From NCBI RefSeq assembly GCF_036588685.1, contig NC_086375.1, forward strand, positions 7,998,001 to 8,062,000: DNA of 64,000 bases, read 5' to 3'. This DNA is from Mytilus trossulus (taxonomy: Eukaryota). This document shows, in pieces, positions 27,601 through 57,260 of this stretch. Numbering within the stretch: position 1 is the stretch's first letter; each line of letters begins with the position of its first letter. Under the pieces are notes generated by a model, which did no database searches, was not told the origin of the DNA, and was given only the letters and a program-made list of their open reading frames with translations. The position numbers were made by a program, and so were the translations under genes.

Positions 27601-27714
27601 ACTCAAAATTATTTTTTGAGCATTTTTCATTTATTGCTTCTACTAGACCAATTATAGAAAAAATCTGAAACTTTCATGTATCACACTCTGCCTGGTTCTT
27701 ACAAAGAGCTGTAC

Positions 27715-29099
27715 TTAACTTATCCTTGTATTGATAAGGAATTTATTTTAGACACTGATGCCAGTGGCACAGGGGTGGGGGCAGTTTTATCACAAATTAA
27801 TGATGAGGACAAAGAGTGTGTTATTGCATATATTAGTCGTACTTTATCTAAAACTGAACGACAATATTGTGTAACTAGAAGGGAATTATTGGCTATTGTT
27901 TTAGCGGTAAAACATTTTCACCATTATTTATACGGAGTCAAATTTACTGTAGGAACTGACCATAGAGCCTTCAACTGGCTCAAAAATTTTAAGAACCTTG
28001 AAGGTCAACTAGCTCGCTGGTTAAAAATTTTAGGAACCTATACGTTTATTATAAAACACTGTGCTAGTTTAAAACATGGAAATGCTGATGGTCTTTCTAG
28101 GAGACCATGTGTTAATTGTAAACACTGTGATACCAGAGATGTTACTGAAGTTAGTTATCAAATAGAGAATCCAACCATAATGGCCATTTATATGTTGGAT
28201 GAGAAAGAAATCGAAGAAACACCTATTGTTACTAATTGGTTTAACAATAAGACCCCTGATGAATTCAAACAAGCCCAATTAGATAAACCTATTATTAGTA
28301 AAATTTTTACTTGGAAAAAGTCATCAGAAAAACCAAAGTGGCCGGAAATTTCCCATCTTAGTGAACACCATAAAACCTATTGGAGTCAAAGATAAAGACT
28401 TACTGTTGTTGAGGGAATCTTATTTAGAAAGTCGGAAAATACCACAACCAATGATATAAATTTACAGTATGTTTTACCATGTGCAGACCGAAACCATGTG
28501 CTTGTGTTGTTGCATAATGATCAGTTAGGGGGGCATTTAGGATTTAAACGAACTATAGGCAGAATTAGGCATAGGTTTTATTAGGCTGGGTATACCAGTT
28601 GTGTAGAAAGGTGGTGTAAGCGTTGCACTGAATGTCAGAAAAGGAACCAACCTTCCCATCATACCAGGGGACAAATGAAATCGTTGGAAAACCTATGAAG
28701 TGTGTATCGCGTGATATTTTAGGTCCAGTGACCAAAATCCAAAAGGGTAATAAATATGTCATTGTCCTGACGGATTAATTTACCAAATATGCTGAAGCAT
28801 ATGGGGTACCAGCTATAGAACCCCAAACTGTAGCAGATAAGCTTCTAGAAGAATTTATATGCTGTTATGCCCCCTACAAATACACACTGATCAGGGCTCT
28901 CAGTTTATTTCTGATGCAAATGTATAAAAAAAAAATATTGACAAGACCAGGAATAGTCCATTTCACCCCAAAATTAGGATTGGTGGATAGATTGAATCGT
29001 ACAATTGAGGATATGATTAGTAAATTTTTGCCTAAACACCAAAAGGACTGGAATCAATATTTATTGTACCTTATGATGGCCTATAGAAAACTCAAATGA
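27715..29099 (+). pseudogene. Gypsy RNase H and integrase (degenerate), continuation of 13131-14558
   Basis: FILDTDASGTGVGAVLSQ, YCVTRRELLA, TDH, NADGLSR, GHLG...CKRCTEC and HTDQGSQF, with several stops and frameshifts. Confidence 0.9.
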
Positions 29100-29682: not shown

Positions 29683-30132
29683 AGAATCCAAAAAAGTTAA
29701 AAAGGCCAAATAAATTAATATCCATCAAAACATTTTTTGTGGGGGTATAAAAAGTGCATTTGGTATTTTTGATATTGCAATAAATGTCAACATTAAATAG
29801 GAGGATGTCAACATTCTACTACAAAATGATGGACTTGTCATGATAATTACACTAGTCATATCAGATATTTTTATTAATATAAACATGGTATATGTATCAA
29901 AAATTAAGTTTCTACAATAAGAAACCTACATAGAACAATATACCAAAGGAGGACTAAGCAACAAACAACAATAAGACCAGCTCTCTTTTAAACTAGATAC
30001 ACAAAACTATGGTACACTAAAGAATGATCTTTGAAAGGACTTACATTTAAAAATAAAAAAGTACATAACACAATAACATCAGAGTATTGTTTATAAATAG
30101 ATCACAGTTCTCTTTGGAGTATATTCATCTAT

Positions 30133-33100
30133 TTATTTCTTTTCTATACACATCTTCATGAAAGTTCTGAAAAAAGAAATAGAAAGATTGTTGTATCAAA
30201 ACATTTTTCATAAAACAGTGAGATAAACGCAAACAATTTGTTTATTCACTAAAGAGGTTGGTGTTCTTCAACCTATTGTTTAATATAGGTAGATCAAGTT
30301 AAGGGAGATCATTTAAAATCAGTAATGCATTTTCAAAATACATTTCCAGAATGTATTTTAAAAACATTTCTTGAAATCAAAATAAAAATTAGAGATGAAG
30401 TAAGCAAAGCTTACAAATGTTAACCCCTGGACCTTGCAAATGTAACATTGTGGTAAGAAAAAAAAAATATTGAGATTAAAATAAAAAAAAAGGTAAAAAA
30501 AAAAGCATTATCATTGTGGGAAAGTTTCAAAAATATGTAATATGCAGTTTAGGAAGAAAATATGATTCTAATTAAAAACAAAATATAATATCCATGATAT
30601 GATTGAGTGCGAGAAAGTTACCGTTTTAAAAGTTTTGATGATATAGAATTCTATGCCTTGGATAGGAAACCCTTGAAATCATTCTGATATAAAAGGAAAC
30701 AGGAGGTTCACATGAAGAATTAATTTCAGAAGAAAACATATTTTTTAAATTCAAGGGCAGATAATTATACTGAATTTTGTTATGACAATTTGTGTTTTAT
30801 TTTAATTTTTAGAGAAAATAAGGCCATTAATAAATGAATATGAATTTTCTCATTGAATCCAATTCTATTGTTAAAATTTCCAAAATAAGGAATTGCAGAT
30901 AGTTCTTACTTAAATATATACCAAAATAAGATCAAATGTCTTGGGTAAGAAATGTGCATGGAAAATTCTCAGTTTGGTAATAAGTTCATTATCTTAAAAA
31001 AAATTAAAAAAAATAGCACAGACTCTCAGAACAGATAACAGATGAAAAATGAGATTCTCTATTTAAATGCTACAGAGATGTTGAAATCTATTTCTGTAGT
31101 TATGCATCTTATAAAACTCTTCAGTTTTTTAAGTGGTCCTTGTCAAATATTTACAATGCCTATCTAAATGTACCTTCATCTGTATTTATTGAAACTTTGT
31201 GTTGATCCCACTCAATTATAATGGTAAAATTGTTTCTAATTGGTAGAGTGGGGGGCTCATTTTCGCCACACCTTTTCATGTTTTCTACACTTTATGTTCA
31301 GGTCTAAATGTTTTTGAAGTATACTGATATTTCTATATGAAGATAACTTCTTATGCAAAATATTATTAAGCTTGAAAATGTGTTTGTTTGAATATAATCA
31401 TCTGAAAAGTTTGATTAAAGGGTGTTTGAAATTTCCTGATTTTTTTGTCAATGGGGGACACATATTCGCCGTTTTTACACATCTATTTAAAACCATATAA
31501 CCGCAGCTTTAAACAACATTGATCAAATCAATTTCATTATAGATGAATCACAGATATTTCAAAGGTGTTAAGAACTGAAATTTAGGGCATTCAGTCATAG
31601 AATTACTTAGAAATTCTTCTTTGATTTCGTGTCTTTTCTTCAGGAAATTGGCCGAAAATCGTTGTCCATTTTTCGGACCTTTTCAGTAGGTGCCGCAATT
31701 TTGTCTCAGTTTTAAAAAATAATCATATTTGTTATATAATATCATTTACCAAAAACCCAAGCTATTCTAACTCCTTAACATAATTATAATACTTCAATAA
31801 GTAGTTTGTATGTATTTAACAAACTGGCAAAGATATTTTGAAAATTTTAAATAGCCATGGTATTTTGACCCCCTGCAGTATATTGAACCCCCTTCTATAG
31901 ACCTTGATTTTCAAAAATTCAAGCTATTCTAACTCCTTAACAGTATTATAAAACTTCAATAAGAAGTTTGTATGTATTTAACAAACTGGCAAAGATATTT
32001 TGGAAATTTTAAATAGCCATGGTATTTTGACCCCCTGCGGTATATTGAACCCCCTTCTATAGACCTTGATTTTCAAAAATTCAAGCTATTCTAACTCCTT
32101 AACATAGTAAAAATACTTCAATTTGTAGTTTGTATGTTTTCAACATGCTGGAAAAGATATTTTGAAAATTTTACTTAGCCATGGTATTTTGACCCCCTGC
32201 GGTATATTGAACCACCTTCTATAGACCTTGATTTTCAAAAATTCAAGCTATTCTAACTCCTTAACATAGTAATAATACTTCAATAAGTTGTTTGTATGTA
32301 TATAACATGCTGGAAAAGATATTTTGAAGAAAAAATATTTTCATGGTATTTTGACCCCCCTGCGGTATATTGAACCCCCTACCATAGACATTCAATTTAA
32401 AAAATTCCAGCTATTCTTAATCCTTAACATAGTAAAAATACTCCAATAAGTAGTTTGTATGCATTTAACATGCTGGAAAAGATATCTTGAAGAAAAAAAA
32501 ATTTCATGGTATTTTGACACCCCCCCCAGACCCTACCATGGCATATTGAACCCCCTACTATAGACCTTGAATTTCAAAAACCCAAGCTATTCTAACTCCT
32601 TAACATAATTATAATACTCCAATAAGTAGTTTGTATGTATTTAACAAATTGGCAAAGATATTTTGAAAATTTTACGTAGCCATGGTATTTTGACCCCCTG
32701 CGGTATATTGAACCCCCTTATATAGACCTTGATTTTCAAAAATCCAAGTTTTTCTAACTCCTTAACATAGTTTTAATACTCCAATAAGTAGTTTGTTTGT
32801 ATTTAACATGCTGGAAAAAGATATTTTGAAAATTTTACTTAGCCATGTTATTGTACCATGGTATATTGAACCCCCTACTATACATCTAAACCAAAGACTT
32901 TTCATGTTAAAATATCTTGCTACTGTAACTCCATAACATATTTATTATACTCCAATCAGTAGTTTGTATTTATTTTATTAGTTTAAAAAAATGTTTTGAA
33001 AATTTTACTTTTTAAAATCAAGTGAGCCATGGTAATTTGACCCCCTCCCCCTTTTTTACCATGGAGAATTAAAACTTAAAAGTCTACCATTCTATATAAA

Positions 33101-36100
33101 TATTTTAAATTTCAAAGAATTATAGTGTCCAAGCTACATGGTCTAGTTTTAATGCTTTAAGAAGTTTTTTTAATGAAATTTTGTTGGTTAAGATTTCAGA
33201 GCACTTATACCAAGCAAATATTTTTCTTTTAACCAATCATTGAAAATTTACCTCCCCTTCTTGTATAAATGATTTTTAATATTTGATTTGGGTTTATATA
33301 ATGTTAAACGTTTTATTAATCATCTAAAATGAAAAAAACAGGGGGGTTCAATTTTTCATACAGGGGGGGGTTCAATTTACCATAGCGGTATTTTGACCCC
33401 GGGGTCATTTTACCATGGGGTTCAAAATACCATATGACACCGGTATATGTCTTCCATTTCAGCCATCCTTTGAAGTTTTTACACCTCAAAATCATAAAAA
33501 GGCGAAATTGTGTCCCCAGCGAATAAGGGCACCCCACTCTACTCTTTATGTTTTGAAAAAGAAGGAAGTTACAGTGTAAACGCTAATCCTAAACCTACCA
33601 CCACAAACTATATTCTACAGTTTGAGCTTTTAAAGATATAACTACTACAACAATACATGTATTTCTTAGATCTCAACCCTCCCCCTATACCTCTAGCCAA
33701 TGTAGAAAAAACAAACACAAGCGTATAAATTCCTTCAGATCCAAAATAAAAAAAAATATTTACCTTCTACCATACTAATGACAAAAAGGCTGATAAGTGT
33801 CTCAAGGCAATTTTTGTATGGATGTTCTATAGAAAAAATAACTGGAGCCAAACAATCTATGATCTCCTAAAGATCTGCTAGTGTATACTAACATTATTAT
33901 CTATGTTACTTACCTAATAATTGAAGGTAACTCTGGATCTTTGTATATTTCACAATGTCTATATCCCAGATGTTTGTCAAATTCTTTATACACAGTAAAT
34001 GATCTTCCAACCTTTCCTTTTCTAAACTGTTCTACTTTATTATGCAACTACAAGAAAAAGTTACAATATATTAAATACAAAACTGAAAAGGTAATTTATA
34101 AGACTTTATAAAATGCCCATTTTAAATAATCAACCTCAATATGTTGAACATTTTACCAGATTTACAGAGTTTGTTTTTTTGCCCTGTTATAAATTATAAT
34201 ACAAACCTTAGATCTGTTTCAGCAGAATAAATAAATAAAACAATTCCAATAAGAGAGGAAAATATTTATTAAATGTTTCAGCTTATCAATTATTGTATAA
34301 AGATATGACAGAATTATATGAATTACCTCCCTTCCACATTGTACAGGTATTATATGGTCATCTGCAGCATGTAGTATTAATAATGGCTCATCTATTTCCA
34401 TAATACTGAAAAAGTATAAATAGAAAATAATAATTAACTGATGATTATTGGTTTTAATACATTTTATTTCTGTTTATATTGCATAATTGATGAAACAGCT
34501 TTGATATATAGAAGTATGTTTGACAACATCAGAAATTTAGGAATGATTCCTCAAACTGTAGAGTTCTCCAAAGAAATGTTTAAATTGTTATCCATAATGC
34601 AGCGAGTTTGAAATTCTTTCTAAAAATGCAAGAAATTTTCCTTACATTTGGACCACACAATATCTGTTTATTCTTTATAGCGAACGAACACCCCGTCTAA
34701 AATGGCCTACTCCAGGAGACAATCTAAAACTTATGTGTTTATGTTTGAATGCAATAGAACCACTGATACACTGGTTGTGAATTTAACCCTTTTTGTCCAT
34801 TTTTTTTGTTGGATAATACCAGGTTAATTTTATCATGCTTACTTATCTTCCGTACAGTAATCAACTACTTTCTTCATAGAGTCTATAAATACCCACTCAA
34901 ACCATGGTAAAAATCTGAAAGGCTGAAAATAATATATTATATATGAGAAGGACTATTTATAAAAGCAAAATATTGAAATAATCTTTTCCTAATAGCTGTC
35001 AGTTTGGATTAATTTGATCAAAAACATCACAAATGTATTTTTGGCTTGCAAGTCAATAATTGAACTAGTATTCATGTCTCTCTGACTTGACCATTTGTTA
35101 ACAGTAAGAGGTGGGTTACACATCCACTAGCATGTTCAGTTAAACAGAATATCAGCATTGAAAATATATGGAATTTTTGTAATAATCTGAAACCATAAAC
35201 GAATGGAGCATAATTAACAGACTTTTAAATTTCAATTATTTAAATCTTTAATTTACAGACAATAATTGCATATGACCCAAGTTAACTTACCAAGGACATT
35301 GGATGTCGCCTTGAGGCATCCCATAAATTGTTGAAGGGTGATTCTAGAATAAGACCATCAACACTTTCTCCTATAATTTAAATCATATAAACAACAAGAG
35401 TGCACACGATGACATGTCTCGCCTTCTTTACTAATCATAGATATTATGTTGATAGACCAAATATAAAGCTTTATTACATTAAATTAATGGTACCAATTTT
35501 CTTGCACCAGACCTGTCACATAAACTCAACATTAACCAAGAAAACGAAACATTGATCAATGAACCATGAAAATGAGGTCAAGGTCAGATAAACCATGCCA
35601 GGCTGACATGTTCAGCTAACAATTCTTCAATACATCAAATATAGTTGACTTATTGCTTATAAATTCAGAAAAACAGACCAAAACACAAAAACTTAACACT
35701 CAGCAATAAGCCATGAAAATGAGGTCAAGGTCAAATAAAACCTGCGTAACAGACATATATATCATAAAATATTTCCATACACCAAATATAATTGACCTTA
35801 TGCATAAAGTATCAGAAAAAAATGAAAAATAGACCAAAACTCCAAAACTTAACTTTGACCACTGAACCATGAAAATGAGTTCAAGGTCAGATGACACCTG
35901 TCAGCTAGACATGTACACCTTAGAATCATTCCATACACCAAATATAGAAGACCTATTGCATATAGTATAAGAAAAACAGACCAAAACACAAAAACCTAAC
36001 TATTAAACCACTGAACCATGAAAATGAGGTCAAGGTCAGATGACACCTGTCATCTAGACATGTACACCTTACAATCATTTCATACACCAAATATAGTACA

Positions 36101-39100
36101 CCTATCACATATAGTGTAAGAAAAACAGACCAAAACACAAAAAACTTAATTATAACCACTGAACCATGAAAATGAGGTCAAGGTCAGATGACACCTGCCA
36201 GTTGGACATGAACACCTTACAGTCCTTCCAAACACCAAATATACTAGACCTATAGCTTATAGTATCTGAGATATGGACTTGACCACCAAAACTTAACCTT
36301 GTTCACTGATCCATGAATTGAGGTCGAGGTCAAGTGAAAACTGTCTGACAGGCATGAGGACCTTGCAAGGTAAGCACATACCAAATATAGTTATCCAATT
36401 ACTTATAATAAGAGAGAATTTAACATTACAAAAAATCTTAACTTTTTTTTCAAGTAGTCACTGAACCATGAAAATGAGGTCAAGGACATTGGGCATGTAA
36501 CTGACGGAAAGTTCGAAACATGAGGCATCTAAAAACAAAGTATGAAGCATCCAGGTCTTCTACCTTCTAAAATATAAAGCTTTTAAGAAGTAAGCTAAGG
36601 CCGCTGCCGCCACCACCGTAGCCGCCGCCGCTGGATCACTATCCCTTTGTCGAGCTTTCTGCAACAAAAGTTGCAGGCTTGACAAAAATCATTCTTTATA
36701 TAATTCCAAAAAGTTGTAGTCAGAAAAAAAACTGTTATTTTGCATCTAGTGTTCCATTTTATTTTTTATTGGCGTCTTTTACAGTTAAAAGACAAAATTG
36801 CAAATCTTAAAGGTTATCTTGCTAAAAAAATCAAATTTAAATTGTGTAACATCATAAAAGTTACAATTGTGTTTAAGTGTAAGTGGTATTTTATGGCTGA
36901 CTATGTGGTATGGGCTTTGTTCATTGTTGAAGGCTGTATGATGACCTAAAGTTGTTAATGCCTGTGTCATGTTGTCTCATTGGCAATCATACCACATCTT
37001 CTTTTTTATATTTATTATTTATTAAAAATATATTTCTATTTTACATGTCATGAAGCCATTTGAAACAAACTATGTCAGACCTTTATCTGTGCCTATGAAA
37101 CTAATAAATAAATCTGCAAGGTGATCCATGAAGATTAGCTACCTTGAAATGCTGATGCTTTCCAGATTTGTCATTCCAGTTATTGGATTGGATTCACCAC
37201 ATGCCAGGCATTACTTTAAAATGCCTATAAATACCTTAAATGATTTCACAAACTCATAAGCAAGAGTCACTAACACAATTTGTCAAACTAAATCTCTATA
37301 AACCCAAAATTTAGATATTGATTGCATAAGTAATTACATACCTTTTTGATTTAAGTGTTTAAGTAGATTGGTACTAATTCTGTAAACAGAAATGTAAAAT
37401 TTTATCATATCCAGTTTCACATCATGGAAAGATAAGATATCAAATCCCAATTTTTATTTCAATAAAACTCAATAAACAGCTGTTCCATAACAGCATACAT
37501 ACTAAGAATGGGTAGGTGACTGTAGGATTCAAATACTGTAAACCAACATATTTTCGCAAATACTTTATTTGGCGTTTAACCCTTTCTAGTCCACCTCGCC
37601 GCTATTTAATTTCGGGATTTTCCAATTTCCAAACTTATCGCGAAAATAAGTTGGTTTACAGTATATTATTGTGTGTATGTGAAAATGTGAGTGAATTTAT
37701 GAAATTGCTTTTATAGGTGTTTAACCAATTTTTAATGTGTCTTCCATATATGTTTTATTAGATCAGCAAAGTATTTTTTTCAACAACCATTATATTAATT
37801 CTATAATTTTTATTATCATAGCTTACTTACTTATCAAGCATAGTTTATAAAAATACAAACAGTTGTCTTATTATAATATGCCAAAGCTCTCAACCAAACC
37901 AAGTCAAGTAAATCTAAATTACCTTCTAAACTGCCTTCAATAGTTATCAAAGGTACCCGGATTATAATTTAGTACGCCAGACACGCATGTCGTATACATT
38001 AGACTCATCAGTGACGCTCATATCAAAATATTTATAAAGCCAAACAAGTACAAAGTTGAAGAGCATTGAGGATCCAAAATTCCAAAAAGTTGTGCCAAAT
38101 ACAGCTAAAGTAATCTATGCCTGGGATAAGAAAATCCTTAGTTTTTCGAAAAATTCAAAGTTTTCAACACCATATTATCAAAAATGGAAGAAAACCATAA
38201 AGAAAAAAAACCAGAAGGCAACCTAAAACATAAGAATTTAATACTTACGCTGACCCTAAAGAATGTCCCCATATATACAGTGGGACTTTATCAGATCTGT
38301 CACGTATCCATTTATATGTTCTATATGTATCTTCTAATACACCCTCTTCTGTGGGGGTTCCTGAGGAATCTCCAAAACCTGTAAAATTGTAAAACTTAAA
38401 TCAAAACTTGTTATTTACTGTGTCTTTTAATGATCTGTTCACAATGGTAATTGCATGATTTCTTTCACTAAATTGGAACAATGTAAAATTCTAAAACAAA
38501 TTGTTTATTAAACCTGGTTTGACTTCTTTGTCTCTTAGAATTATATCATTTGATTTAAGTTTTAGGTTATTTGTAAGTCATGTATAATAAACCCTAGTAT
38601 AGTAAGATACAAATTCTTGGTCCCTCCATAAAACATTTCTGACATTTTTTGTTCTAATACTTTCTTGGCTTTCAAATATTTGTCATTGAACATTCCTGTC
38701 ACGCTTACAAAAAATCGGCAATCCAACGTCACACTTAGACCCCAATGAGACCCACTTGAAGGTAATCCAGAAAAGCATTTCGGGTGATCATGCATGAAAG
38801 TTAAAAGGCATTCTGTTCTTCTTTTTATTCACCTTTTCTCAGTCATAGCTTCCATTTCAAGATTTATAAATGGCAAAAAAAGTTTTGCTATTCTACTTCC
38901 TCTTTGAAATAATATAATTACCTCTATAATCTATGGCTATCACATGAAAATTCATAGAAGACAAAACTTTGTATAACTCTATTCTGTGTGGCTGTGCTCT
39001 GCAAAATTTTACAAAAAACATTGAATTGAAAATATAAAATCAAAAACACAGTCTTTAAAAGAGAATAAAAATGAATAAATAACATAATTAAAACATGTTT

Positions 39101-42100
39101 TCTTTTTCTGAATCTTTTAAAATAGACTTAAATGGAAACAATGGTTACATTTTTATTGTATTTCTTATAATAACTATATCACATATATATCATGATACAT
39201 TATTTTAATTTTAAATACTTTACAAATAGTTGTTTTTTTATTTACAATATATGGTTTGGTCGCCATCACATCACTATTAATCTATCAGTAAAAGCAATTA
39301 ATTAATTTACTTTATTTTCTGCTCTTTATGAATGCTTTTATGACAACATCAATTACTGCTGCAACAATGAATATTAATAGAATATAAAAAGAACATCATA
39401 TTCCATTCTTCATATGGATTGTTTATGTTATGTCAAATATGGCATCATGTTAGATACATGTAGTTTTGAAAAATCTAAAATCCCCAAAAGCATTAAGTTG
39501 TTGAATTAGCAAATTAACCTCAAACAAGTAGCAAAATGGCATATTTACATACAGAATCCACATGTTAGCATTATAAGCAATATCCTTTAAATAACAAGTA
39601 CTTAATTCAATAACTCACATATTTTACTAATTGTTGACAATAATTAAGAATTTCCAATATAACTTTTCAAATTTTCTTTTACATTTGTAACCCTTGTGGG
39701 TCTTCCCTCAGCTGCACATTAAAAATAATTTGTCATAGAAACCCATTTATTTTTCAATAATCTTTTGTAACTTTCCAAAAAAAACAATAATTTGAAATCC
39801 CTATTATTACTAATACATATTTATCATGTTTATCATACATTTTAAATTATTTCTAACCATATATCTTTCAACGGAAAAGGATAAATGAATCCATTTTTGT
39901 CTCAAAAACTATGTAGACCTATCTGCAATTTTCTCAACTTTAGACAAATTAAACATTATCCATTAAACCCCACCATTTATGAAAATGTTTTGCTATGGAT
40001 TTCAAAGGCAGACATCCTTTATAATAAAATTGAGAAAGGAAATGGAAAATGTGTCAAAGCAACAACAACCTGACCATAGAGCAGAAAACAGCCGAAGGCC
40101 ATCAATGTAGCGAGAAAATCCAGCACCCAGAGGCATTTTTTTTAGCTGGCCCCTTAAAAAAATGTATACTAGTACAGTGACAATGGACGTCATAGTAAAC
40201 TCTGAATTATACACAAGAAACTAAAATTAAAAATCATACAAGACTAACAAAGGCCAGAAGCTCCTGACTTGGGACAGGCCCGAAATTGCAGCGGGGTTAA
40301 ACATGTTTATGAGATCTCAACCCTCCCCTATACCTCTAGCCAATGTAGAAAAGTAAACGCATAACATTAGGCACATTAAAATTCAGTTCAAGAGAAGTCC
40401 GGGTCTGATGTCAGAAGATGTAACCAAAGAAAATAAACAGAATGACAATAATACATAAATAACAACAGACTACTAGCGGTTAACTGACATTCCAGCTCCA
40501 GACCTCAATTAAACTCATTTTCAGTGATTGAAATATTATGTCTTCATCATATGAATATCAGACACAATTCCTCCTGTTAGGGGTTTAGTATAAAACTATC
40601 TTGCAAACTTGTAAAGGTTGCATTTCAATTCAATTTTTGCATTTTAAATAAGCAGCAGTTGATTTATAAGTGCATATATTTTAAGCATGGGTAGAATGTT
40701 TATGTGCTTTACAAGATTTCAAATATATCCACCTTGTGGCAGCGTTTCCATGGAGATATAGAATGATTGGATGACCTGAGTTTAACTTTAAGTCTGGGTT
40801 ATCTCCCCTTGTCTGTTGTGGTATAGTATGCCTACAGATATAAATTAAAACCAATATAATAAAACACCTTGTTCCTGCCCTTCCATGAAGGTATAAAATA
40901 ATGGGGTGTCCTGAATCCAGCTGACTTGATTCACTTTCTAACAAATCTGCTGGTAATGTTTGCCTTCAATAAAACAAAATAAAGTACTAACTGATAAGCA
41001 ATCCTGAAGAATATATATTGTTTTCTACATCATTTTCTTGAACACCAATGGCCAGAAGAAATTCAGATAAAACTTAATTGAAAGTCATATCTCAATCACA
41101 GTGAGGTTGTTGTTCCATAATTAACGTTACTCATTTGTCTTTTAAAAGTTATACAACACATGTGTGGATAATGCTATTAAACTGTTAAAAACTCCATTCA
41201 AATAACCTTTTGTAATACTGGTAGTAGTTATTTTTTTTTTTTAAATAAAGGATTATAAATAGACAATAATTTGTCATCTCAATAACTTACCAAGCACCTA
41301 ATGTAACTTTTTCATTGACTTTGATGTAGAAATTCTTACAGCCTTTGATTCCTCTCTTGTCTGGACGCTTCAGGTCAACAAAATAGGGAAACTTTACTAA
41401 ATTAAAATTAGAAAAACGTAAAATAATATTTATATATAACAACAAACTTAACAACAGCCATACAGTACATTAAAATTATTTTCATTTACTCCTTGAGGCA
41501 TGAGTTCATAATCTGGTATAAGTGACAATTAAATACCTTGTTCACTACTGTCTTCACGATTGTCAACAAATTTTTCATGCATTTTCAAGATAAGGTTTTT
41601 GTGTGGAATAATTTGCTAACAACAGAAACATGATAAATCTTCCTGAACCTCTATCGCTATTCCAAATTGAAATCTAACAATAATAATATTATACAAATAT
41701 ATCATGCTTACAAGGGGTATTTGCCAAAAATACCGGTTGAGAGGTACAAATTTCCAGAGCTGATAGGCGAGGGAAATTTTATTACCTCGAAACAGGTATT
41801 TTTGGCAAATACCCCTTGTAAGCATGATATAATTGTTTAATTCCACCGAATGTTCTACCTTAGTGAGTTTATTATTATCAAGTATCATAAGGAATTTCTA
41901 CTTGAAAGTATATTGTTTGTATGTATTCACTGCAGCTGTGCTATTTGCGCAGTCAAATTGCATTGGTCGTATAATCATTTCTTATCATATTTTTATGTAT
42001 AGTTACTAGCTGACCTTTTTATGATAATATGCTGGTTCTCGGCTGACTACTACACTTAGTTCATCAGTTTGAGTGAAACGTAATATTAGTGGATTCCAGT

Positions 42101-44812
42101 TTTATGTGACCCGTTGACAAGTCATTTTCGTTGAGTTTTATTTATGACGTCATTAAAAGTACAGACTCGCGGAATTTTTACTTCATTCAATAATGATGCT
42201 TTTTATCCTTAATATTTCATCTGGAACTGTATATTTAGAATGACCATCAATTTGTCATATTAGAATAGAAATAATGCATTAAGTTGTTTTTAGACATGGT
42301 ATTCCCCTTCTGCCATGGTATTTGCTAGGGTATTCCCCATCTGCCATGGTATTTGCTAGCAAATACACCGGCACATGGAAATCCCTAATGACAAATACCC
42401 CGGCAGAGAAAAGAAAATCTCAATTCATAGAAATTGGTAAAAAATACAATGTTTCTCATCCAATCAAAATACAGCATTATTACATAAGGTGGAATTAAGA
42501 CAGAAAGACCACAAATTTTGAAAGTAAAAATTGTATACACATATATGTACATGCATTGAAAGCCAAAAAGACTGGTCAGAACAATCTTACTTAAGGTCCA
42601 CCTGAGCAAATATGTAGCTGGCATATTGTTGAAGCTTGCAACAATCTTTAGAAGTTGGTCTTTTTTTCTATAGTTCTTCATTTGTGAGAGAAACTTATTA
42701 ATTTGTCCATAGGCCTCTAGTGCTTATATTTAGCAAGTTTAAACAAATGAGACATGGTACTGAACTTGAGGAGCTTTTTGTTTAATAAAAATATAATGTA
42801 GATTTAATATGCTTCTAGTCCTATCTACTGTAAATTCATTAATTATTGCCAGGTTTTTATTATTGCGAAAAATGTGATAGAGTTGTAAAAGCAATAATTC
42901 AAACTCACATTTTGAAACATTTGATATGAATAAACAGGATTTTTCTCAAAATCGTAAAAATTAAAATCGCAACAATAATTAAATGCACGCAATAATTAAA
43001 TGCACGCAATAATTTCTGAAGTTACAGTATTTTGAAATACAGACATGAGTACAGTGTCATTTTACATTTTTTTGGTACTTTTACAAATACAGTAGAACCA
43101 GTATATTAAGAGCATGCAGAGGCTATAATTTAATAATGATTATGTTGTAAAACCCTTATATTCAGTAATTAAAGCCTTTATTATCATTATCATGACAGAT
43201 GATTGTAAATTCCAATGTAAAATTTAATTGACAGCTAACATTGGGAAGTGGAATTGGAGAAGAATGAAAACTACCAAAAATCTACATTATGGATAATTTT
43301 GAAATAAAGGTCACTATCAAACCTAATATCCTAATATCATGAATAATTCATAATTTTAATTTTCATATAACTTGCAAGTTTGGTTATATTTTATGTACAA
43401 ATATCTAGTTGATAGTTGTTAATGTTTGTGTCATGTTGGTCTTCTGTGGATAATTGTCTCATTGGCAATCATACCACATCTTCTTTTTTATATTCACAAT
43501 ACTTACAGAAATGTAAGAAGAGTATTTTAGAGAAGATCCATGGATTTGTCTTGACCAGTACTGGCACCACTACATACAGGACAAATAGAACAGCAGAGAA
43601 TGTCTTTGCTGCTGAGGTCAACCATGGCACATCAAACCTGAAACATACATGTAATAGACATTAGAGAATGTTTGTGCTGCTAAAGTCAATCATGGCACAT
43701 AAAACTGGTAAAACCTGAAAAAACACATACATGTTCAAGAAAACATTTAAATTAATATTTTGAAAAAAAAACTATTTAATTGTTTGACTTCCAGTTCTTT
43801 AAGTTAATATTGCAAGTCCATATCAAGAAAATGGAAGTGTTTTCTTTAATAACCTTCAACATGTTCATGATGACACGTCCCACTTAGATAGATTGTACAT
43901 GTTGTAATGGAATGTATGTATCATGGATGGATTTGTTTGCATATAAATATGAGTTTTAGGTAGCAATAGTGAATACAAAGTGTAGAGTTTGAGTTTCCTT
44001 TTTGGCCAGGGTAAAATTCTAAATATAAAATATATTGTATACATGTCCCATAATATTAAATTTAAGGCAGCTCACGATTCAAAGTTATTTAATATATTAA
44101 CATCAAGATTGTTTTTGGCATGTTTTATACATGTTGTAGTCCTTTTTCTTTTTATCATGTTTATAGAAAATAATAGTTTCATAACATTTTTATAAGATCA
44201 AACTTTTCATTTCAATGAATGGAAAATGATATGAAATGCATATGATTATTATTTGATCTTGTGATATAATAATATATACATGTACATGTAGTGTATATCA
44301 GGCGCGTTGCAACCTGTATGCAACAATGCAGTTACGTACACATTGAAAATTTCACAAAAATAAAAATACGGTAAATCTAGTAAGAATAAAACTAAAGTAA
44401 TGAAATTAATAAAAAAAAATACAAATATGTTAATGATCACTTTGCAGCTATATATTCTGTTTCGAAAACTAGTCTACCCTTTTCATTTATGAAACCAGCA
44501 TCGTGATTCTGCAGCTAAATTACGAAAGAAACGACCCAGACGTTTTGAACTCCTTGTATGCTTCTGCCGCAACTGTCAATACTGATCTGTCAATGCCCAA
44601 AAACCGTGGTGCCCAACGTAATAGGCCCAATGCACCAGCGCAAACCCCTTCTGAATACTGGAAACTGAACATGTAGATACATTTTTTGTACCTTTCGTCG
44701 ATCATTTGATAGCAGAGTTGAATACAAGACTTCTGACAGCAGAGTAGCGTTATGTCGCACAAAAGTTAATCCAAAAAAACATTGACCAACTTACTTTAGC
44801 TGTTGGGGACAT
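30133..44812 (-). CDS. ABHD12: Lysophosphatidylserine lipase ABHD12-like alpha/beta hydrolase
   Basis: Exons (minus): 44812-44795 and 44657-44524 (both tentative), 43637-43507, 41396-41291, [40963-40868 or 40831-40733], 38998-38922, 38378-38249, 37379-37342, 35370-35291, 34922-34843, 34405-34327, 34047-33914 and 30166-30133, with consistent phases. Motifs: TM anchor, PYFVDLKRP, PIILYLHG, DYRGFGDS, nucleophile WGHSLGS, LILESPF, LILHAADD, GYRH. Confidence 0.92.
31243..33542. mobile_element. DNA transposon remnant enclosing a satellite, in the last ABHD12 intron
   Basis: Inverted ends GTAGAGTGGGG / CCCCACTCTAC; no clear TSD. Confidence 0.5.
31750..33060. repeat. ~162-bp tandem satellite, about 8 copies
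   Basis: gccatggtattttgacccc recurs at 31854, 32016, 32178 and onward. Confidence 0.9.
35392..36688 (-). mobile_element. Non-autonomous Helentron-like element with ~145-bp internal repeats
   Basis: Repeated tgaaccatgaaaatgaggtcaaggtc unit and terminal hairpins; a sister copy lies in the opposite orientation at 49015-50127. Confidence 0.75.
37538..37661. mobile_element. Small mariner-type MITE
   Basis: TA-CTGTAAACCAAC...GTTGGTTTACAG-TA. Confidence 0.75.
37935..38165 (-). mobile_element. Retrozyme-like repeat with a degenerate hammerhead (37974-38018)
   Basis: Minus strand GCGTCA-CTGATGA-GTC...-GACA-TGCGTG-TC-TGGCGT: GAAA is changed to GACA and stem II has a mismatch. Confidence 0.6.
40024..40590. 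repeat. Interspersed SINE-like repeat
   Basis: aaaattgagaa.ggaaatgg..aatgtgtcaaag...accatag...gctggcccct; other copies at 55875-55980, 58480-58845 and 59470-59635. Confidence 0.7.
41699..41830. repeat. Near-perfect ~130-bp palindrome, probably the terminus of an element extending to about 42500
   Basis: atatcatgcttacaaggggtatttgccaaaaatacc...ggtatttttggcaaataccccttgtaagcatgatat. Confidence 0.85.
42828..43027. mobile_element. Mariner-type MITE
   Basis: TA-CTGTAAATTCA..AATTATTGC ... GCAATAATTTCTGAAGTTACAG-TA; a related copy lies at about 52340-52785. Confidence 0.7.
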
Positions 44813-44929
44813 AATCTTTAATGAATATGCAGATGATGCCCATGTTACATAAGACAAATTTCGATCTGAAATTCAGAGATGGTTAGCAAAATGGACTGGA
44901 GATTTTGATAACATCCCTAGCAACCTGCA

Positions 44930-45250
44930 GGAAAAATTTTTAAAATGTTTTAAACCCAGGAATCTTTCAGATACTTTTAAAGTATTTGCATTTATGCCGG
45001 TCTGACGGCAACGGCAGAACAGTCTTTTAGTTCTGAGAAGAGTGAAGACCTACTTGAGAAATACATTTGAAAAGGAATCCTTTATCCGGACTCGGTCTAT
45101 TGAACATATACTGAGAAAATTAAAGCAGACACGGTTTTGAACATCTTTAGTAGAAAAAAAGAAAGGAAATGGCAGTGATTTTTCAGAATTAACTTTGAGA
45201 GAAAAAAGCTGAAAAACACTGCTTGTTCACTCATAAAATAAAACATAAGA
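44930..45250 (+). pseudogene. hAT transposase C-terminal dimerisation-domain remnant
   Basis: Frameshifted MPV/TATAEQSFS/LRRVKTYLRNT/GLGLLNI. Confidence 0.65.
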
Positions 45251-46368
45251 TATGTGATTCAAATTTTTATTTACGTATTTTCTCAATAAAAAAAATACCA
45301 TTTAGGTTGCACAGTGTTGGCTTAGAAATTAGTTTGTGTTCTATTGTAAAGTGGGATCAGCATGATTAGGTAACAAATAAAATATACCTAATCAAGCTAT
45401 TTTAACCCACTACACATAAGAAAAAAAATTGTTAAACGCAGTACAGGTTTCTTTGTTTTTCTCTGATTATTTATTTCCAAAGTTGACTTGTTTCTCCTGA
45501 AAGTAAGATTTCTGTGAGGTCATTTTAAGTCCTCGGAAATTGTGAGAATGAAGGATTTTGCAGTATTTACCCCAGAGCTCAGGGGGCCTTAAGCGGCACC
45601 CATACCCTCTGCCGTATGACTTCCTTCTCCTGCATTGCGTTCACATCATTTTATACAGTATCAAAATTGAGTTCCTGAAATTTTCATCTGCCTTGTAACA
45701 TACATTATACAGGTCATTGATTCGAGTCCCAGTGGAGACATGCAATTTTGAAAGAAGAATCATGCTCTCTGGTTACAGGTATAAGGCATTACTACCCTCA
45801 TGAACATTAATCCTAATTTGCTTGAAAACAAGGGAAAGAGGGTGATTCAAAATTGGTTCGATATTAATTTTTTATCCTAACTGTGTATTGTCACCAAGGG
45901 CAAGGATTTGTATATGACGTATATCATTATGGATATAGTAAGAATTAAAGAAATACAAATCCTTGTTGTCACCAATGGCACGAGTATTCAACATTAGCAG
46001 ATGGTAGCAGTCCAAATGTTCGGTTTGAAATAGAAAGATAAAATATAACAAGTACAGTGTTACAGCATATAAAAATTTCTTAGTCTAAAAATTCTGGCTT
46101 AAAATCCTTACATTTTGACGTTCCAGATTTTGAAACGGGAAGATCGGAAATGATGTTAATTTTTTACGAAGTCGGAAAAACTAAGGGAATCCGGTTTATA
46201 AACATGATATAGCTTTACACATACATCCGGCAACCTAATTACATTATCAATTATTATTTAAATAGAAATATTCTATAAATTACCATAAATTTAATCTTTC
46301 AAGTAGAAGTTTAAACAATCGAAGTAAATTGCAGAGTTGGTCCGCATTTGATTCTCAAATTCTATAAA

Positions 46369-46905
46369 ATGGCGGGAGAAGGAGAAACTGTGGAAATCAT
46401 AACAGAAACAATAGCACAAAAAGATGAGACAGACATTAGTCATTTAAAGAACAGTGATGAAAATAAAACAACAAACTTAGAAAATGAATCTTTATCAGAA
46501 AAAGATGTATCAGATAATATTCCTGCAATCGAGAATGGCACTCATGAAGAAACTGAAACAAATGAAGATCAAGAAGAAATATTAGAACAAAACTCTAGCA
46601 CACAAGATCAAAATGAACCTTCAGGGACTAGCGAATCTAAGTCACCTAACTCAAATGAACGTTTAATGCGACTGCCATTATCCCGCATAAAGGTGATAAT
46701 GAAAACCGATCCTGATGTTACTTTGGCGAGCCAGGAAGCAGTTGTCGCACTTTGTAAAGCAACAGAACTTTTTATCGGAGCAATTTCTAAAGACGCAGTT
46801 GTAACCACGTTAAACAGTAAAAGAAAAACATTACAAAGAAAAGACCTTGATGTAGTGCTTGATTCCAGAGATGGCTATGCCTTTTTAGAAGGAACATTAG
46901 ATTGA
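46369..46905 (+). CDS. POLE4: DNA polymerase epsilon subunit 4 (histone-fold), intronless
   Basis: ATG in aaaATGG context. C-terminal RLPLSRIKVIMKTDPDVTLASQEA...KRKTLQRKDLD...AFLEGTLD matches POLE4; the N-terminal extension is acidic. Confidence 0.95.
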   Translation: MAGEGETVEIITETIAQKDETDISHLKNSDENKTTNLENESLSEKDVSDNIPAIENGTHEETETNEDQEEILEQNSSTQDQNEPSGTSESKSPNSNERLMRLPLSRIKVIMKTDPDVTLASQEAVVALCKATELFIGAISKDAVVTTLNSKRKTLQRKDLDVVLDSRDGYAFLEGTLD

Positions 46906-53151: not shown

Positions 53152-56100
53152 TTAAGAATCACAAATGAACAAGTTAGTAGTTAGTAATGCATTAGCAGTG
53201 AGTAAAGAAGTGTTCACAGAATTGACACACATGTCTAACTGATCTATCACTATAGTTCTCTTCATCACTGAAGTGTTGTAATCTTCTTGTAGTTTAGTAT
53301 TCACTGGGTTACCAAGATCCTCATTGTCTAAGTCTACCAGTTCTGTAGTTTCCAAACTATATATTCCACAACTGCAAATTACCTCCCCTTCTTCAACTTC
53401 CTTTGGAACTTTCCAAAAATGATGGTAGGTACAATCAGTCTTGCCATCTTCCGAGTCCTTGACAACAGTTTTTGCAATATTCTGTAAACTTTTACAAACC
53501 ACATCTAATGCTGATAATATAGCAGACCTTGTACAATAAAACTCTTCAACAAGACTTGGCATTTCAGACAGCACCTGTAAAAAACAAAACATATTAAAAA
53601 TACTGATGTAAATATATCAACATCCACCTTTATTCATATTAATTTTGCCATCCAACAAGTAAAATGTTTTATCAACTTTTAAAGATTAAATAAAATCAAT
53701 TTATAAATAAATTCTACTTATGACACCACCTCAATTTAAACTTGATCTGTGTTTTGTGGAAATAAAGAGTTGTGTTCAAGTCGCATTACAACTGGTTGAA
53801 ACAAACTAAAGGTAGAGAGATACGATAGAGACACAAAAAGATTTGATACTGATATATATTAGGTTGGGTATTAGAAAGTATTGACTATATATCTAGAAAG
53901 CACAGAATTTTTGCAAAGAAAATAAATTAATCATCAATATCGTAGAAAATCTTTGAAAGAAGTAATACTTTTTTCCTGAGATTGAAACATGTCTTCATTT
54001 CCCAGCATCCTCCTCCAGGAAGTACATATGATGAGAAAGCTAATCTCTCCATGGAATGTAGCGCACTTGAACATACTGCCTGAAAAAATAAGAGTTATCT
54101 TTTTTTAAACACTGTTCAGAAATATTGATCTCTACAGTACCCTTCAAGAGGATCGATTCGATATGTTTTTTCTCTGATTTCCGTGTTTCTCAGAATCACA
54201 CCGAGTACCGTGGATTTCACTCTTAAAATCCTCCAAAGATTCTCTCCCAACACTGTGTGGCTGTTAATTGGTTTATTGTCCATCGGATGTATTAAAAATA
54301 AATGATTGTGTGACAACATAATCGGATTACCCAGATAATTGACCAGAACATTTAATTGATCTTGGTTGCACAGGTGTGCTTTAAAATCACGGTATTAAAA
54401 ATTGAACAAATGTTTTCCTTTCTTTGACATATAAAGATGCGACAATATAATTTAAAATAAGATAATTATTATCTTTAATATTTGTTTTTGTATTATGCCA
54501 TTATCTTCGAAATAAAATGTACATACCAAAAAATATGAAGAAAATACTTGTTATTTTGTGTTTCTATTACAGTCCAGTCATGTCATACATTGTGTTCTTT
54601 CAACAAGGACGATTTTGCCACAATTAGAATCTGTTATGACTTACTCAATTCGCAATATCAGTGCATTAATTGTTCATTATTTAAAAATAAACTGGCTAAT
54701 AAAATCATGTTGTTTTTACGGTAACACGATTCATCGGATCAACAAGTAAACTTATTTATTGAGCAATGAAAAATATTATGTTTCACCAACTCGGTATATT
54801 TATACAGACTTGAATAATTTAGATTTCGAACAGAAACTGTAAAGTTGAACAAAGGAAATAACTTCAAGTGATATTGATAGCGTTGTCATTTTCGTATTTT
54901 ACAAATGTATTTCAAAGGCAACTACTGAAGACTGTACCATTAAAACACGCATGGTACCTAGGAAAGGCACTTTTAAAATGGAGAAACTAACTGTAGAGGC
55001 AAATTAATGTAAATTACACTAAAACTTTCATTATGCAATAACATAGATGAACCCAACCTTAGTTGAAATTTTGATGTGCCTTCCCATGGTCCCATGTATA
55101 TGTTTGTGGAACAGCCATTTAAAGGTGTATGCCATCTCATATGTGTTGTGTAAATATTAATATGTTTTTTTTCTTTTTTTAAAATCCATATCAAATCAAT
55201 ATCCTGGATAAATTCTATTTATGAAAATTGTTTTTACAAATTCTCAGTTATAACTTTTTCTGGAGTGTAATATATATATTCAGGTCTGAAGATTTGTTCA
55301 GGAAATATTTTAATTTTCTAAAAACATGCCCACTAACTATTGGAGAAAGCTGGCTACAATTCATACGTTCATAAATCACTTTCTCAATAACATATTTCAT
55401 TAATATTAATTGAATGAAAGGAGATGTGCACCATCAATACATCACCACCGAATGAAACCAACCTTTAATTCCTGTACTGATTCTTCATGATCACTGGTTA
55501 ACCTTAATGTTCCAACAGGAGATTCCTGTCTCTTCAGGGAAAGATAACTCTTTTTGTTGATATTTTGATGTTCTATAGAATCTAGGTGTCCAATATCTGA
55601 TGCTATTACAGTAAAACTTCTCAAAGATTGTGCTCCTGCAATAAATATGGAAAGTTCTGTTTAAAATTAACCTATTAGAATATTTAGTTCAGGCAATCTT
55701 AGGGGCTATTTATTGATTTATTACTGTAGCCTGGAAAGAATATACAGTGAAAACTAATAAATGTTTAGTTTCTCTACACATTGTATTGCAATTCTTTTGA
55801 AGTAAGATAATTTATCTTTGTCCTAATCTTTATTCTATACGAGTTTAACCCTCAAGTTTTTATATTCAATCTTTAAAATTGAGAATTGAAATGAAAAATG
55901 TGTCAAAGAGACAACAACCCGACCATAGAAAAAACAACAGCAGAAGGTAACCAACAGGTCTCCAATGTAGCGAGAAATTTTGTATTGTTTTGCTTTTCCT
56001 CTTTTTCTTGCTGAAATGTTGTCTAAATTTGATAGACTTACAAGTGGTTATCTATTTTGTGTTAGCCTTTGGTATCTTGCCTAGTTTTGTCTTTTTCATA

Positions 56101-57260
56101 AAACATGAAATATTCATCTCATTTATCTCAAGAATCTACCTAATTATTCTCTAGATGTGACAGGAATTTAGAAGATTACAATAGAGCTGGTAAAGAAACA
56201 ACAGTCAAAGTTTGGTCACAGTTTTAGACACAACCGAGTTTGACTCAGCAAGGTTTGACTGTACTTAATAATGTGAATGGATCCTTATCTACCAACCTGT
56301 TAATTTCAGTATGAATGGAATCATCTGTGAACCAAGACGTTCTACAGGTAAAATATTCTGTTTATAAAGGTAACTTTTCACTGAAGGATGAATAACTTTC
56401 TGACAGAAAAGGACTCCAACATTCAATTCTGCACATCTGTCACAAAACTTCATTATTCTACTTAAAACTGTTTTTTCTTCTGACAGCTCATTAAAAACTT
56501 CATATTCTGCATCCATAATTTCTTCTGAATCACCTGTCATGGAAATGGTTACCATGGCAACATTGATCCGATTGTTTACTTTTTTTACATTGTTTAAAGC
56601 GGCCAGAGGAAGTTGATAACCTTGTAATAGCAATCCTTGATATAATTTAGAATCAGAAACAGGAAGTCCTTCAACTGGAATTAAATATATGTTCTCTTCC
56701 CAGCTACCAGACCTTCCCTCACAAGGGAGATAACTTGCAAAAACTTGGACCAGAAGCTTAGAAAAGTTATCTAAATCATATGAATTCAGTTTACACAATG
56801 GTTTTCTACCAATTATAGTTTTAACAAAATTAGTCATTTGATTAAGACTGGAAATATCTATATTCATTTTTGAAGATTCAGCAGTAATGTCTTCAACAAC
56901 TATTGTTAAAAATCTGTCATATAACTCTGTTAAGTAAGAATTGGTGACGTTAAGATTCATCGACTTAGTCAATAATAAAACAGGTAACATAGAAACAAAA
57001 TGTCCTCCATCGGAAAAGTGTTGAAGATGACCTTGAACGGCTGTTACAATGAGTCGAATAACAGGTTTAGACACAGACAATGACTGTAGCAGACGACAAG
57101 AGGTAGAGGTCATAGTTAGATGACCTCCAACAGAATTCTGAACCATCTGGATACATCCTTTACGACATGATGCTGTTATCTTCAGGAATAAATTAAGGGC
57201 ATCTACTATATCAGGACTCACAAGGTTCTGTAATTGTAAAGTTCCAACTGATTGGTCCAT
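53152..57260 (-). CDS. MKKS: McKusick-Kaufman/Bardet-Biedl chaperonin-like protein (BBS6)
   Basis: Exons 57260-56297, 55635-55463, 54079-53969 and 53574-53152, with consistent phases. Motifs GGHLTMTSTSCRLL, HLQHFSDGG, LFCQKVIHPSVKSYL, VERLG and LPGGGC; the four-coding-exon layout resembles vertebrate MKKS. Confidence 0.93.

What the first reader, a model, noticed from the sequence alone, without database searches (positions are those of the whole stretch)
40733..40963. ABHD12 has tandem duplicated, probably mutually exclusive exons that swap the oxyanion-hole loop
Seen in sequence: two homologous exons, A (40963-40868, 96 nt, QTLP...DSGHPIILYLHGRAGTR) and B (40831-40733, 99 nt, HTIP...NSGHPIILYLHGNAATR). 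Both have AG/GT ends in the same phase and are only 36 nt apart. The core GHPIILYLHG is identical in protein but differs at most synonymous positions, which suggests both copies are under selection. Established knowledge: the HG motif forms the oxyanion hole of alpha/beta hydrolases, and very short spacers sterically prevent two exons being joined. Inference: two isoforms differing next to the active site (HGR vs HGN) may differ in lipid specificity. I am not aware of this arrangement in vertebrate ABHD12.
Basis: partly seen in the sequence, partly recalled or inferred. Interest (0 to 1): 0.75.

Follow-up and report, generated by a model that had tools for sequence, protein, structure and literature searches.

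The report
Mussel lipase swaps substrate-pocket exon
A mussel fat-splitting enzyme gene carries two duplicate exons that RNA data indicate are used one at a time, and they differ at a residue that mouse experiments tie to lipid binding, so the two forms likely prefer different lipids; this is a familiar kind of splicing switch, already present in database annotations but apparently not described in print.

Summary
Exons A (40963-40868) and B (40831-40733) of a Mytilus ABHD12-like lipase are tandem duplicates 36 nt apart, in the same phase. The window matches the M. trossulus RefSeq isoforms X2 (exon A) and X1 (exon B) exactly, and the same pair is annotated in three more Mytilus species. RNA contigs show B spliced to its flanks. 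In 3 of 4 runs a contig lies along A with the spacer uncovered, and flanking contigs break exactly where A and B diverge; A's own junction rows were not printed. The shared core is under purifying selection (pS 0.91, pN 0.11). New here: the swapped residue (Arg in A, Asn in B) maps to Asn177 of mammalian ABHD12, whose mutation spares the catalytic serine but nearly abolishes lyso-PS hydrolysis (bioRxiv 2025.02.19.639194). B is the ancestral form; A is derived. A substrate switch is therefore likely but untested, and the mussel enzyme has also lost Lys373 and other lyso-PS determinants, so its substrates are uncertain. It is a new member of a well-known class (tandem duplicated exon substitution near an active site: KHK, ACSL6, coq-2). 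Interest 0.4.

The parts
40868..40963 (-). Exon A (derived copy), 32 codons, ends HGRAGTR; used in RefSeq isoform X2
   Evidence: one RNA contig along it in runs X1, X15, X21
40879..40881 (-). Arg108 codon of exon A, at the position of mammalian Asn177
   Evidence: codon position; mapping
40832..40867 (-). 36-nt spacer, GT...AG; any branch point is at most about 27 nt from A's donor
   Evidence: uncovered in RNA contigs by depth arithmetic
40733..40831 (-). Exon B (ancestral type), 33 codons, ends HGNAATR; used in RefSeq isoform X1
   Evidence: splice joints
40744..40746 (-). Asn109 codon of exon B (= mammalian Asn177)
41291..41396 (-). Common upstream exon (KFPYF...TLGAW)
38922..38998 (-). 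Common downstream exon (AQPHR...IDYR), carries the His185/Arg186 equivalents
38249..38378 (-). Exon with the nucleophile motif; catalytic Ser at about 38260-38262
33952..33954 (-). Cys codon after the catalytic His, at the position of mammalian Lys373 (common to both isoforms; position computed from the tblastn offset)
30130..46210 (-). Whole ABHD12-like gene, approximate ends; coding exons at about 43637-43507, 41396-41291, A/B, 38998-38922, 38378-38249, 37379-37342, 35370-35291, 34922-34845, 34406-34327, 34047-33913, 30167-30136; candidate first exon ending near 46112 (not tested with RNA)

Best explanation
This Mytilus ABHD12-like lipase gene holds two tandem copies of one exon, 36 nt apart, which are spliced in one at a time (shown for B, inferred from contig geometry and database models for A), likely because the spacer is too short to be removed, and the swap likely changes which lipid head group the enzyme accepts. 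Steps: (1) the exon encoding the first core strand, a surface loop and the HG-X loop was duplicated (shown by homology); (2) the 36-nt spacer blocks A-to-B joining by steric interference (inferred from the under-50-nt rule); (3) each mRNA carries A or B, giving 328- or 329-residue proteins with the same triad and predicted fold (models); (4) B keeps the ancestral Asn177 and has Ala at 179, A has Arg177 and keeps the common Gly179; (5) since Asn177 governs lyso-PS turnover without touching serine reactivity in the mouse enzyme, both forms would be active hydrolases with different head-group preference (inferred, untested). Odds: mutually exclusive splicing about 0.95; a real specificity difference given that, about 0.6.
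For: Database models: of 17 Mytilus proteins retrieved, 8 carry the A motif, 9 the B motif, none both; 5 of 5 isoform pairs compared (four RefSeq X1/X2 pairs and one GenBank pair) are identical outside the swapped exon. RNA contigs: joint 38998>40733 in 4 of 4 runs, 40830>41290 in 3 of 4; one contig along A in 3 of 4 runs; bin depths fit A and B covered and the spacer empty (X1 observed 7.51, expected 7.66 without and 10.95 with spacer; X15 6.24 / 6.29 / 9.66; X21 4.63 / 4.57 / 6.85). In X1 the upstream contig ends exactly after the 3 letters that A and B share at their start, and in X1 and X21 the downstream contig begins exactly at the 5 letters they share at their end, the shape expected if both exons join both flanks. 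Selection: pS 0.91, pN 0.11; Arg kept in exon A of all 4 species. Position: 22 of 22 published residue numbers match a great-ape ABHD12 at one offset and place Asn177 on R108/N109; N177A keeps probe labelling of Ser246 but loses almost all lyso-PS lipase activity, and Asn177 contacts docked lyso-PS (bioRxiv 10.1101/2025.02.19.639194). Asn stands there in 112 of 117 non-Mytilus homologues (2 Thr, 1 Arg, 2 unread; mostly vertebrates). Steric rule: PMC5740500 and PMC4165533.
Against: A's two junction rows were not among the 15 printed (56 hidden), so A's splicing is read from geometry, not from a printed joint; joints A>B or skip-both, if present at low depth, would be hidden too. The runs are only guessed to be RNA (spliced joints argue that they are) and are contigs, so no isoform ratios or tissues. 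Run X4 showed B only. No enzyme data exist for either form. The mussel protein differs from mammalian ABHD12 at several tested positions in both isoforms (Lys373>Cys, Gln97>Phe, Glu281>Ala, Phe287>Met, no Asn123 sequon), so the mouse result may not carry over. Among distant relatives position 177 varies more (24 of 114 representatives are not Asn). The exons also differ over about 15 loop residues, which could be what selection keeps.
Confidence: 0.57

Rival explanations
1. The exons are mutually exclusive but the two enzymes have nearly the same substrates; selection keeps both for stability, membrane or partner contacts of the variable loop, or for tissue-specific splicing control.
For: Most differences lie in the loop before the conserved core; position 177 is not Asn in 24 of 114 diverse representatives; both isoforms model equally well (pLDDT 86.7 and 88.1).
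Against: The loop varies between species while Arg is fixed in 4 of 4; Asn177 is a tested substrate determinant.
Confidence: 0.22
2. Isoform A is a weak or dead enzyme (a long Arg side chain blocks the pocket), and including exon A is a way to turn activity down.
For: N177A already abolishes lyso-PS turnover in mouse; Arg is rare at this site (1 of 117 non-Mytilus; 0 of 80 metagenome loci).
Against: A dead isoform would hardly keep the whole core unchanged at saturated synonymous sites; unrelated full-length homologues carry Arg or Lys here with an intact triad (P0121, P0203, P0181, P0233).
Confidence: 0.16
3. Not a splice switch: A+spacer+B is one exon, or exon A is a pseudo-exon, or A and B transcripts come from two gene copies.
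For: The spacer is in frame and stop-free; M. galloprovincialis has a second annotated locus with an A-type protein (P0013); one M. edulis model joins the first 21 nt of A to B through an inner GT at 40942 (P0002).
Against: Stop-free spacers arise in 42% of shuffles; spacer uncovered in RNA contigs; 0 of 17 Mytilus proteins carry both motifs; isoform pairs are identical outside the exon; only one gene copy in the 64-kb window; pN far below pS.
Confidence: 0.05

Closest known systems
Tandem duplicated exon substitution / homologous mutually exclusive exons (PMC9741552, PMC7954323, PMC5740500)
   Same: Two homologous same-phase exons in tandem, one per mRNA, fold kept, differences at a functional site; steric block by a short intervening intron (9% of human clusters, PMC5740500 passages; 30-37-nt introns in C. 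elegans let-2, gly-5, bet-2, PMC4165533 passages).
   Different: This gene is not in the human lists I could search (the first supplement held was only 15,271 characters); the event looks young or narrow (four Mytilus species), whereas most human ones are ancient (abstract of PMC9741552).
coq-2 exons 6a/6e (PMC7434440, passages read)
   Same: Homologous mutually exclusive exons remodel an enzyme's active site and switch its substrate; occurs in molluscs; one exon is the universal type, the other lineage-specific.
   Different: Different enzyme family; the switch is proven genetically and is spread over several phyla. Here it is untested and seen in one genus.
ACSL1/ACSL6 fatty-acid gate exons (PMC1543647, abstract) and KHK A/C (listed in PMC9741552 supplement; substrate affinity difference recalled)
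   Same: Lipid or small-molecule enzyme in which an exon swap changes one key pocket residue.
   Different: Vertebrate-wide and biochemically studied; not alpha/beta hydrolases.
Mammalian ABHD12 lyso-PS lipase and Drosophila CG15111 (bioRxiv 10.1101/2025.02.19.639194)
   Same: N-terminal hydrophobic helix, Ser-Asp-His triad, His185/Arg186/Tyr205/Trp243/His245/Asn277/His285/Asp332 equivalents kept, about 45% identity.
   Different: No such exon pair found for it; mussel protein has Cys for Lys373, lacks the Asn123 sequon, misses the paper's acyltransferase-motif filter, and sits on a long branch whose place among ABHD12s is weakly resolved.
Oyster alternative oxidase AOXA/AOXB from a duplicated exon (PMC5589949, search listing and start of abstract only)
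   Same: Bivalve enzyme isoforms from alternative splicing of a duplicated exon.
   Different: Other gene; details not read.

Membership tests
Homologous mutually exclusive exons | Two adjacent exons homologous in sequence | tested here: met
   E 2e-8, 11 identical core residues
Homologous mutually exclusive exons | Same phase, frame kept with either exon, canonical splice sites | tested here: met
   96 and 99 nt, AG/GT ends
Homologous mutually exclusive exons | Each exon is spliced to both common flanks | tested here: met
   B by printed joints; A by contig cover and branch geometry plus database models, not by a printed joint
Homologous mutually exclusive exons | The two exons are not joined, nor both skipped, at notable levels | tested here: inconclusive
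   No such joint among 15 printed rows, 56 hidden; spacer uncovered; 0 of 17 proteins with both motifs; contigs drop rare forms
Steric-interference class | Donor-to-branch-point distance under about 50 nt | tested here: met
   Whole spacer is 36 nt; threshold from PMC5740500; the minimum intron size in Mytilus was not measured (other introns of this gene are about 279 nt or longer)
ABHD12 (criteria of bioRxiv 2025.02.19.639194) | N-terminal transmembrane helix | tested here: met
   Kyte-Doolittle 19-mer peak 2.19 at residue 11 and a modelled helix 5-31; no dedicated TM predictor run
ABHD12 (criteria of bioRxiv 2025.02.19.639194) | Ser-Asp-His triad; length 250-550 | tested here: met
   S178, D264, H305 in the 329-residue form
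ABHD12 (criteria of bioRxiv 2025.02.19.639194) | Nucleophile motif with at most 3 mismatches | tested here: met
   3 mismatches, at the limit
ABHD12 (criteria of bioRxiv 2025.02.19.639194) | Acyltransferase motif with at most 3 mismatches | tested here: not met
   6 mismatches against the great-ape protein, and 6 against the motif printed in the paper; His and Asp kept. Hence filed as ABHD12-like, not as a strict ABHD12.
ABHD12 (criteria of bioRxiv 2025.02.19.639194) | One-to-one orthology to vertebrate ABHD12 | tested here: inconclusive
   Mytilus plus three unnamed Logan proteins form a clade (100/98) on a long branch apart from other bivalves; deeper nodes weak (72/90)
ABHD12 (lyso-PS lipase) | Hydrolyses lyso-PS | not testable with these tools
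   Needs an assay; Lys373, whose loss abolishes it in mouse, is Cys here
alpha/beta hydrolase fold | Fold and Pfam domain | tested here: met
   PF00561 E about 1e-21 for both isoforms; VIA Z up to 25.8, rmsd 2.9, 255 aligned

The most novel reading that the evidence does not exclude
Mussels lost the head-group lysine (Lys373) of ABHD12 and regained a cation in the same pocket through the duplicated exon: exon A's Arg177 makes an anionic-lysophospholipid lipase, exon B's Asn177 a neutral monoacylglycerol lipase, so one splice choice toggles between lyso-PS-type and endocannabinoid-type signalling lipids, activities that a single mammalian ABHD12 combines. Hint: all 4 non-Mytilus representatives with Arg/Lys at 177 lack Lys/Arg at 373, against 44 of 110 others (Fisher p 0.03, post hoc, no phylogenetic correction); but 12 of 20 with other non-Asn residues lack it too, and no further case turned up in 80 metagenome loci.
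Probability: 0.18. Interest if true: 0.62.

Novelty: new member of a known kind. Interest (0 to 1): 0.4.

Why it matters
If the isoforms differ in substrate, this is a natural, selection-tested pair of variants at Asn177, a residue so far probed only by an alanine mutant, in an enzyme without a solved structure whose human loss causes PHARC. It would show how the ABHD12 pocket reads head groups and give a splice-level control point for lysophospholipid and monoacylglycerol signalling in a farmed bivalve. It does not change how splicing is understood: exon swaps at enzyme pockets, held exclusive by a short intron, are established.

Tried and rejected
No whole genome is held for this window, so paralogues and intron-size distribution could not be checked. 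No RNA holder was listed as on-record RNA; the four runs laid are contigs. Pfam scan of the A+spacer+B read-through gave only a weak SIR2_2 hit below cut-off, ignored. The repeat finder shows no repeat or long hairpin tied to the exon pair, so no sign of a docking/selector RNA structure; not pursued further. Searches for an A-type exon outside Mytilus: region search gave 4 proteins, 3 Mytilus and a Daphnia protein with HGN; isoform lists of 20 other clusters showed isoform pairs in Haliotis and Dreissena, and the X2 forms I fetched (one each) keep the same HG exon as their X1; metagenome scan with the exon peptide found nothing; with the alignment it gave 80 loci, of which three with two HG motifs (L055, L061, L078) are tandem whole-gene copies, not exon copies. 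These blanks do not show absence, since 90% clustering hides isoforms and no other bivalve genome could be read. Dating by exon-peptide trees failed: A+B as one clade 83/82 in one tree, unresolved in another, and B grouped with three related Logan proteins is not rejected (p-AU 0.15). The 177/373 covariation could not be replicated. Structure jobs return no coordinates, so the Arg side-chain position was not examined. Literature: 'ABHD12'+'mutually exclusive exon' (5 papers, none on this by title/abstract start), 'ABHD12'+'Mytilus' (3), 'ABHD12'+'alternative splicing'+'mussel' (0), 'mutually exclusive'+'exon duplication'+'bivalve' (2), 'ABHD12'/'exon duplication'/'duplicated exon'/'mollusc' (12 of 171 listed), 'lysophosphatidylserine'+'Mytilus' (5): no description found; subscription journals are mostly outside this library. 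Four look-ups of earlier scan findings gave nothing relevant.

Full report
Observation. Their last 17 codons differ at 12 synonymous and 4 replacement positions (pS 0.91, pN 0.11, p 1e-7). The duplication is old enough for silent sites to be saturated, and both copies have kept the protein core. The open frame through the spacer means little: 42% of shuffled spacers are stop-free.

Identity. A protein search with the region returned only Mytilus ABHD12-like proteins. The window matches M. trossulus XP_063425442 (X1, exon B) and XP_063425443 (X2, exon A) residue for residue in the exons compared. X1/X2 pairs with the same swap exist for M. californianus, M. edulis and M. galloprovincialis; 5 of 5 pairs compared are identical outside the exon, and of 17 Mytilus proteins 8 carry A's motif, 9 carry B's and none both. 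One M. edulis model joins 21 nt of A to B through an inner GT (P0002); I have no RNA support for it. So the arrangement is already in automatic annotation.

RNA. Four runs from four studies were laid on 38200-41450 (contigs, RNA status guessed by the tool but with spliced joints). B joins the downstream exon in 4 of 4 runs and the upstream exon in 3 of 4. The joint table was swamped by an intronic repeat and printed 15 rows with 56 hidden; A's joints are not among the printed ones. Three other lines show A's use. One contig lies on A in X1, X15 and X21. Bin depths fit A and B covered with the spacer empty. And the flanking contigs break where the graph must branch if both exons join both flanks: in X1 the upstream contig stops after the three letters shared by the starts of A and B, and in X1 and X21 the downstream contig starts at the five letters shared by their ends. 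In X4 the B contig runs into the upstream exon without a break and most of A is uncovered; contigs drop rare forms, so this is no proof of regulation. Depths (A about 10, B about 17 in X1; 10 and 6 in X15; 7 and 7 in X21) cannot be read as expression levels. Of five base differences listed in exon A of two runs, three are silent and two conservative, none at the Arg codon (78 rows hidden).

Why exclusive. Both exons are multiples of three, so nonsense-mediated decay would not remove a double inclusion. The spacer is 36 nt; possible branch adenines lie at most 27 nt from A's donor. A donor-to-branch distance under 50 nt is the accepted criterion for steric interference (PMC5740500, passages), and C. 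elegans pairs with 30-37-nt introns are described the same way (PMC4165533, passages). The threshold has not been measured for Mytilus; this step is inference.

What is swapped. Both isoforms model as the same alpha/beta hydrolase (pLDDT 86.7 and 88.1). The exon supplies the end of strand 76-82, a variable loop, strand 101-106 and the HG-X loop. All 22 residue numbers published for human/mouse ABHD12 match a great-ape protein at one offset, and Asn177 falls on R108 of A and N109 of B. [quoted passage not shown] Asn is found in 112 of 117 non-Mytilus homologues, so B is the ancestral type and A the derived one, with Arg in 4 of 4 species. A backbone role would be indifferent to the swap; the side chain is what changes. 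The second difference, Gly (A) against Ala (B) two residues on, lies in the same loop.

Against over-reading. The mussel enzyme is divergent in both isoforms: Lys373, whose loss also kills lyso-PS turnover in mouse, is Cys; Gln97, Glu281 and Phe287 differ; the Asn123 glycosylation site is gone. It fails that paper's acyltransferase-motif filter (6 mismatches) and sits with three unnamed Logan proteins on a long branch of uncertain place. I file it as ABHD12-like. What either isoform hydrolyses is not known. The loss of Lys373 suggested a charge swap. Of 292 aligned proteins 251 had HG and the triad; these reduced to 115 representatives, 114 without Mytilus. All 4 with Arg or Lys at 177 lack Lys/Arg at 373, against 44 of 110 others (p 0.03), but so do 12 of 20 with other non-Asn residues, the alignment near His372 is shaky in some rows, and 80 metagenome loci gave no further case. 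It stays a hypothesis.

Spread and age. No exon pair was found outside Mytilus, but the tools hold no other bivalve genomes. The three closest non-Mytilus proteins carry a B-like exon; trees of the 32-40-residue peptides cannot say whether the duplication came before or after that split.

Comparison and verdict. It works like other tandem duplicated exon substitutions, whose variable residues cluster at functional sites (PMC7954323, abstract), notably coq-2 (PMC7434440, passages) and the ACSL gate exons (PMC1543647, abstract). ABHD12 does not occur in the supplements of two human surveys as held here (one is short), and six literature searches found no account of this pair. Real, conserved across four Mytilus species, sitting on a tested substrate residue, but of a known kind and functionally untested: new member of a known kind, interest 0.4.

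Noticed in passing
window 43705-43663 vs 43637-43595 (-): A decayed tandem copy of the start of the first large coding exon lies about 70 nt upstream, with its own AG near 43714 and a stop codon; a second, failed local duplication in the same gene.
   Followed up: partly
window about 46369-46902 (+) and 46112-46210 (-): An intronless histone-fold gene (PF00808; POLE4-like by recall) lies head to head with the candidate first exon of the lipase, only about 150-250 nt apart, suggesting a shared promoter.
   Followed up: partly
P0013 (XP_076100244.1): M. galloprovincialis has a second annotated ABHD12-like locus with an A-type protein and a few substitutions; a gene duplicate or an uncollapsed haplotype.
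   Followed up: no
P0016 (VDI73745.1): A-type protein fused to a GTPase-like region in one annotation; probably a gene-model merge.
   Followed up: no
window 40942 (-): Inner GT in exon A that one M. edulis model uses to join 21 nt of A to B (111-nt intron, in frame); run X4 has unexplained cover in bin 40925-41033 while 40903-40930 is empty.
   Followed up: partly
window about 34020 (-): Mytilus proteins differ by a 3-residue stretch (KVG present in M. trossulus and M. californianus, absent in M. edulis and M. galloprovincialis) inside one exon near the C-terminus.
   Followed up: no
window 39950-40600, 38640-38800 and 41688-41841: High-copy intronic repeats (very deep RNA contig cover) and a 59-nt inverted repeat, MITE-like, in the introns around the exon pair.
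   Followed up: no
window 975-8074 (+): HEPN_DZIP3, nSTAND3 NTPase and long ankyrin-repeat gene, an immune-receptor-like architecture.
   Followed up: no
window 15638-21184 (-), 27658-29096 (+), 53155-57266 (-): Pao/BEL retrotransposon, a Ty3-like RNase H fragment, and a TCP-1/cpn60 family gene (MKKS-like by recall).
   Followed up: no
L055, L061, L078: Tandem whole-gene duplicates of ABHD12-like genes in crustacean-like metagenome contigs; in L078 the second copy has HGV in place of HGN, so gene duplication diversifies the same residue elsewhere.
   Followed up: partly
P0121, P0203, P0181, P0233: Unnamed full-length homologues with Arg or Lys at the 177 position and no Lys at 373.
   Followed up: partly
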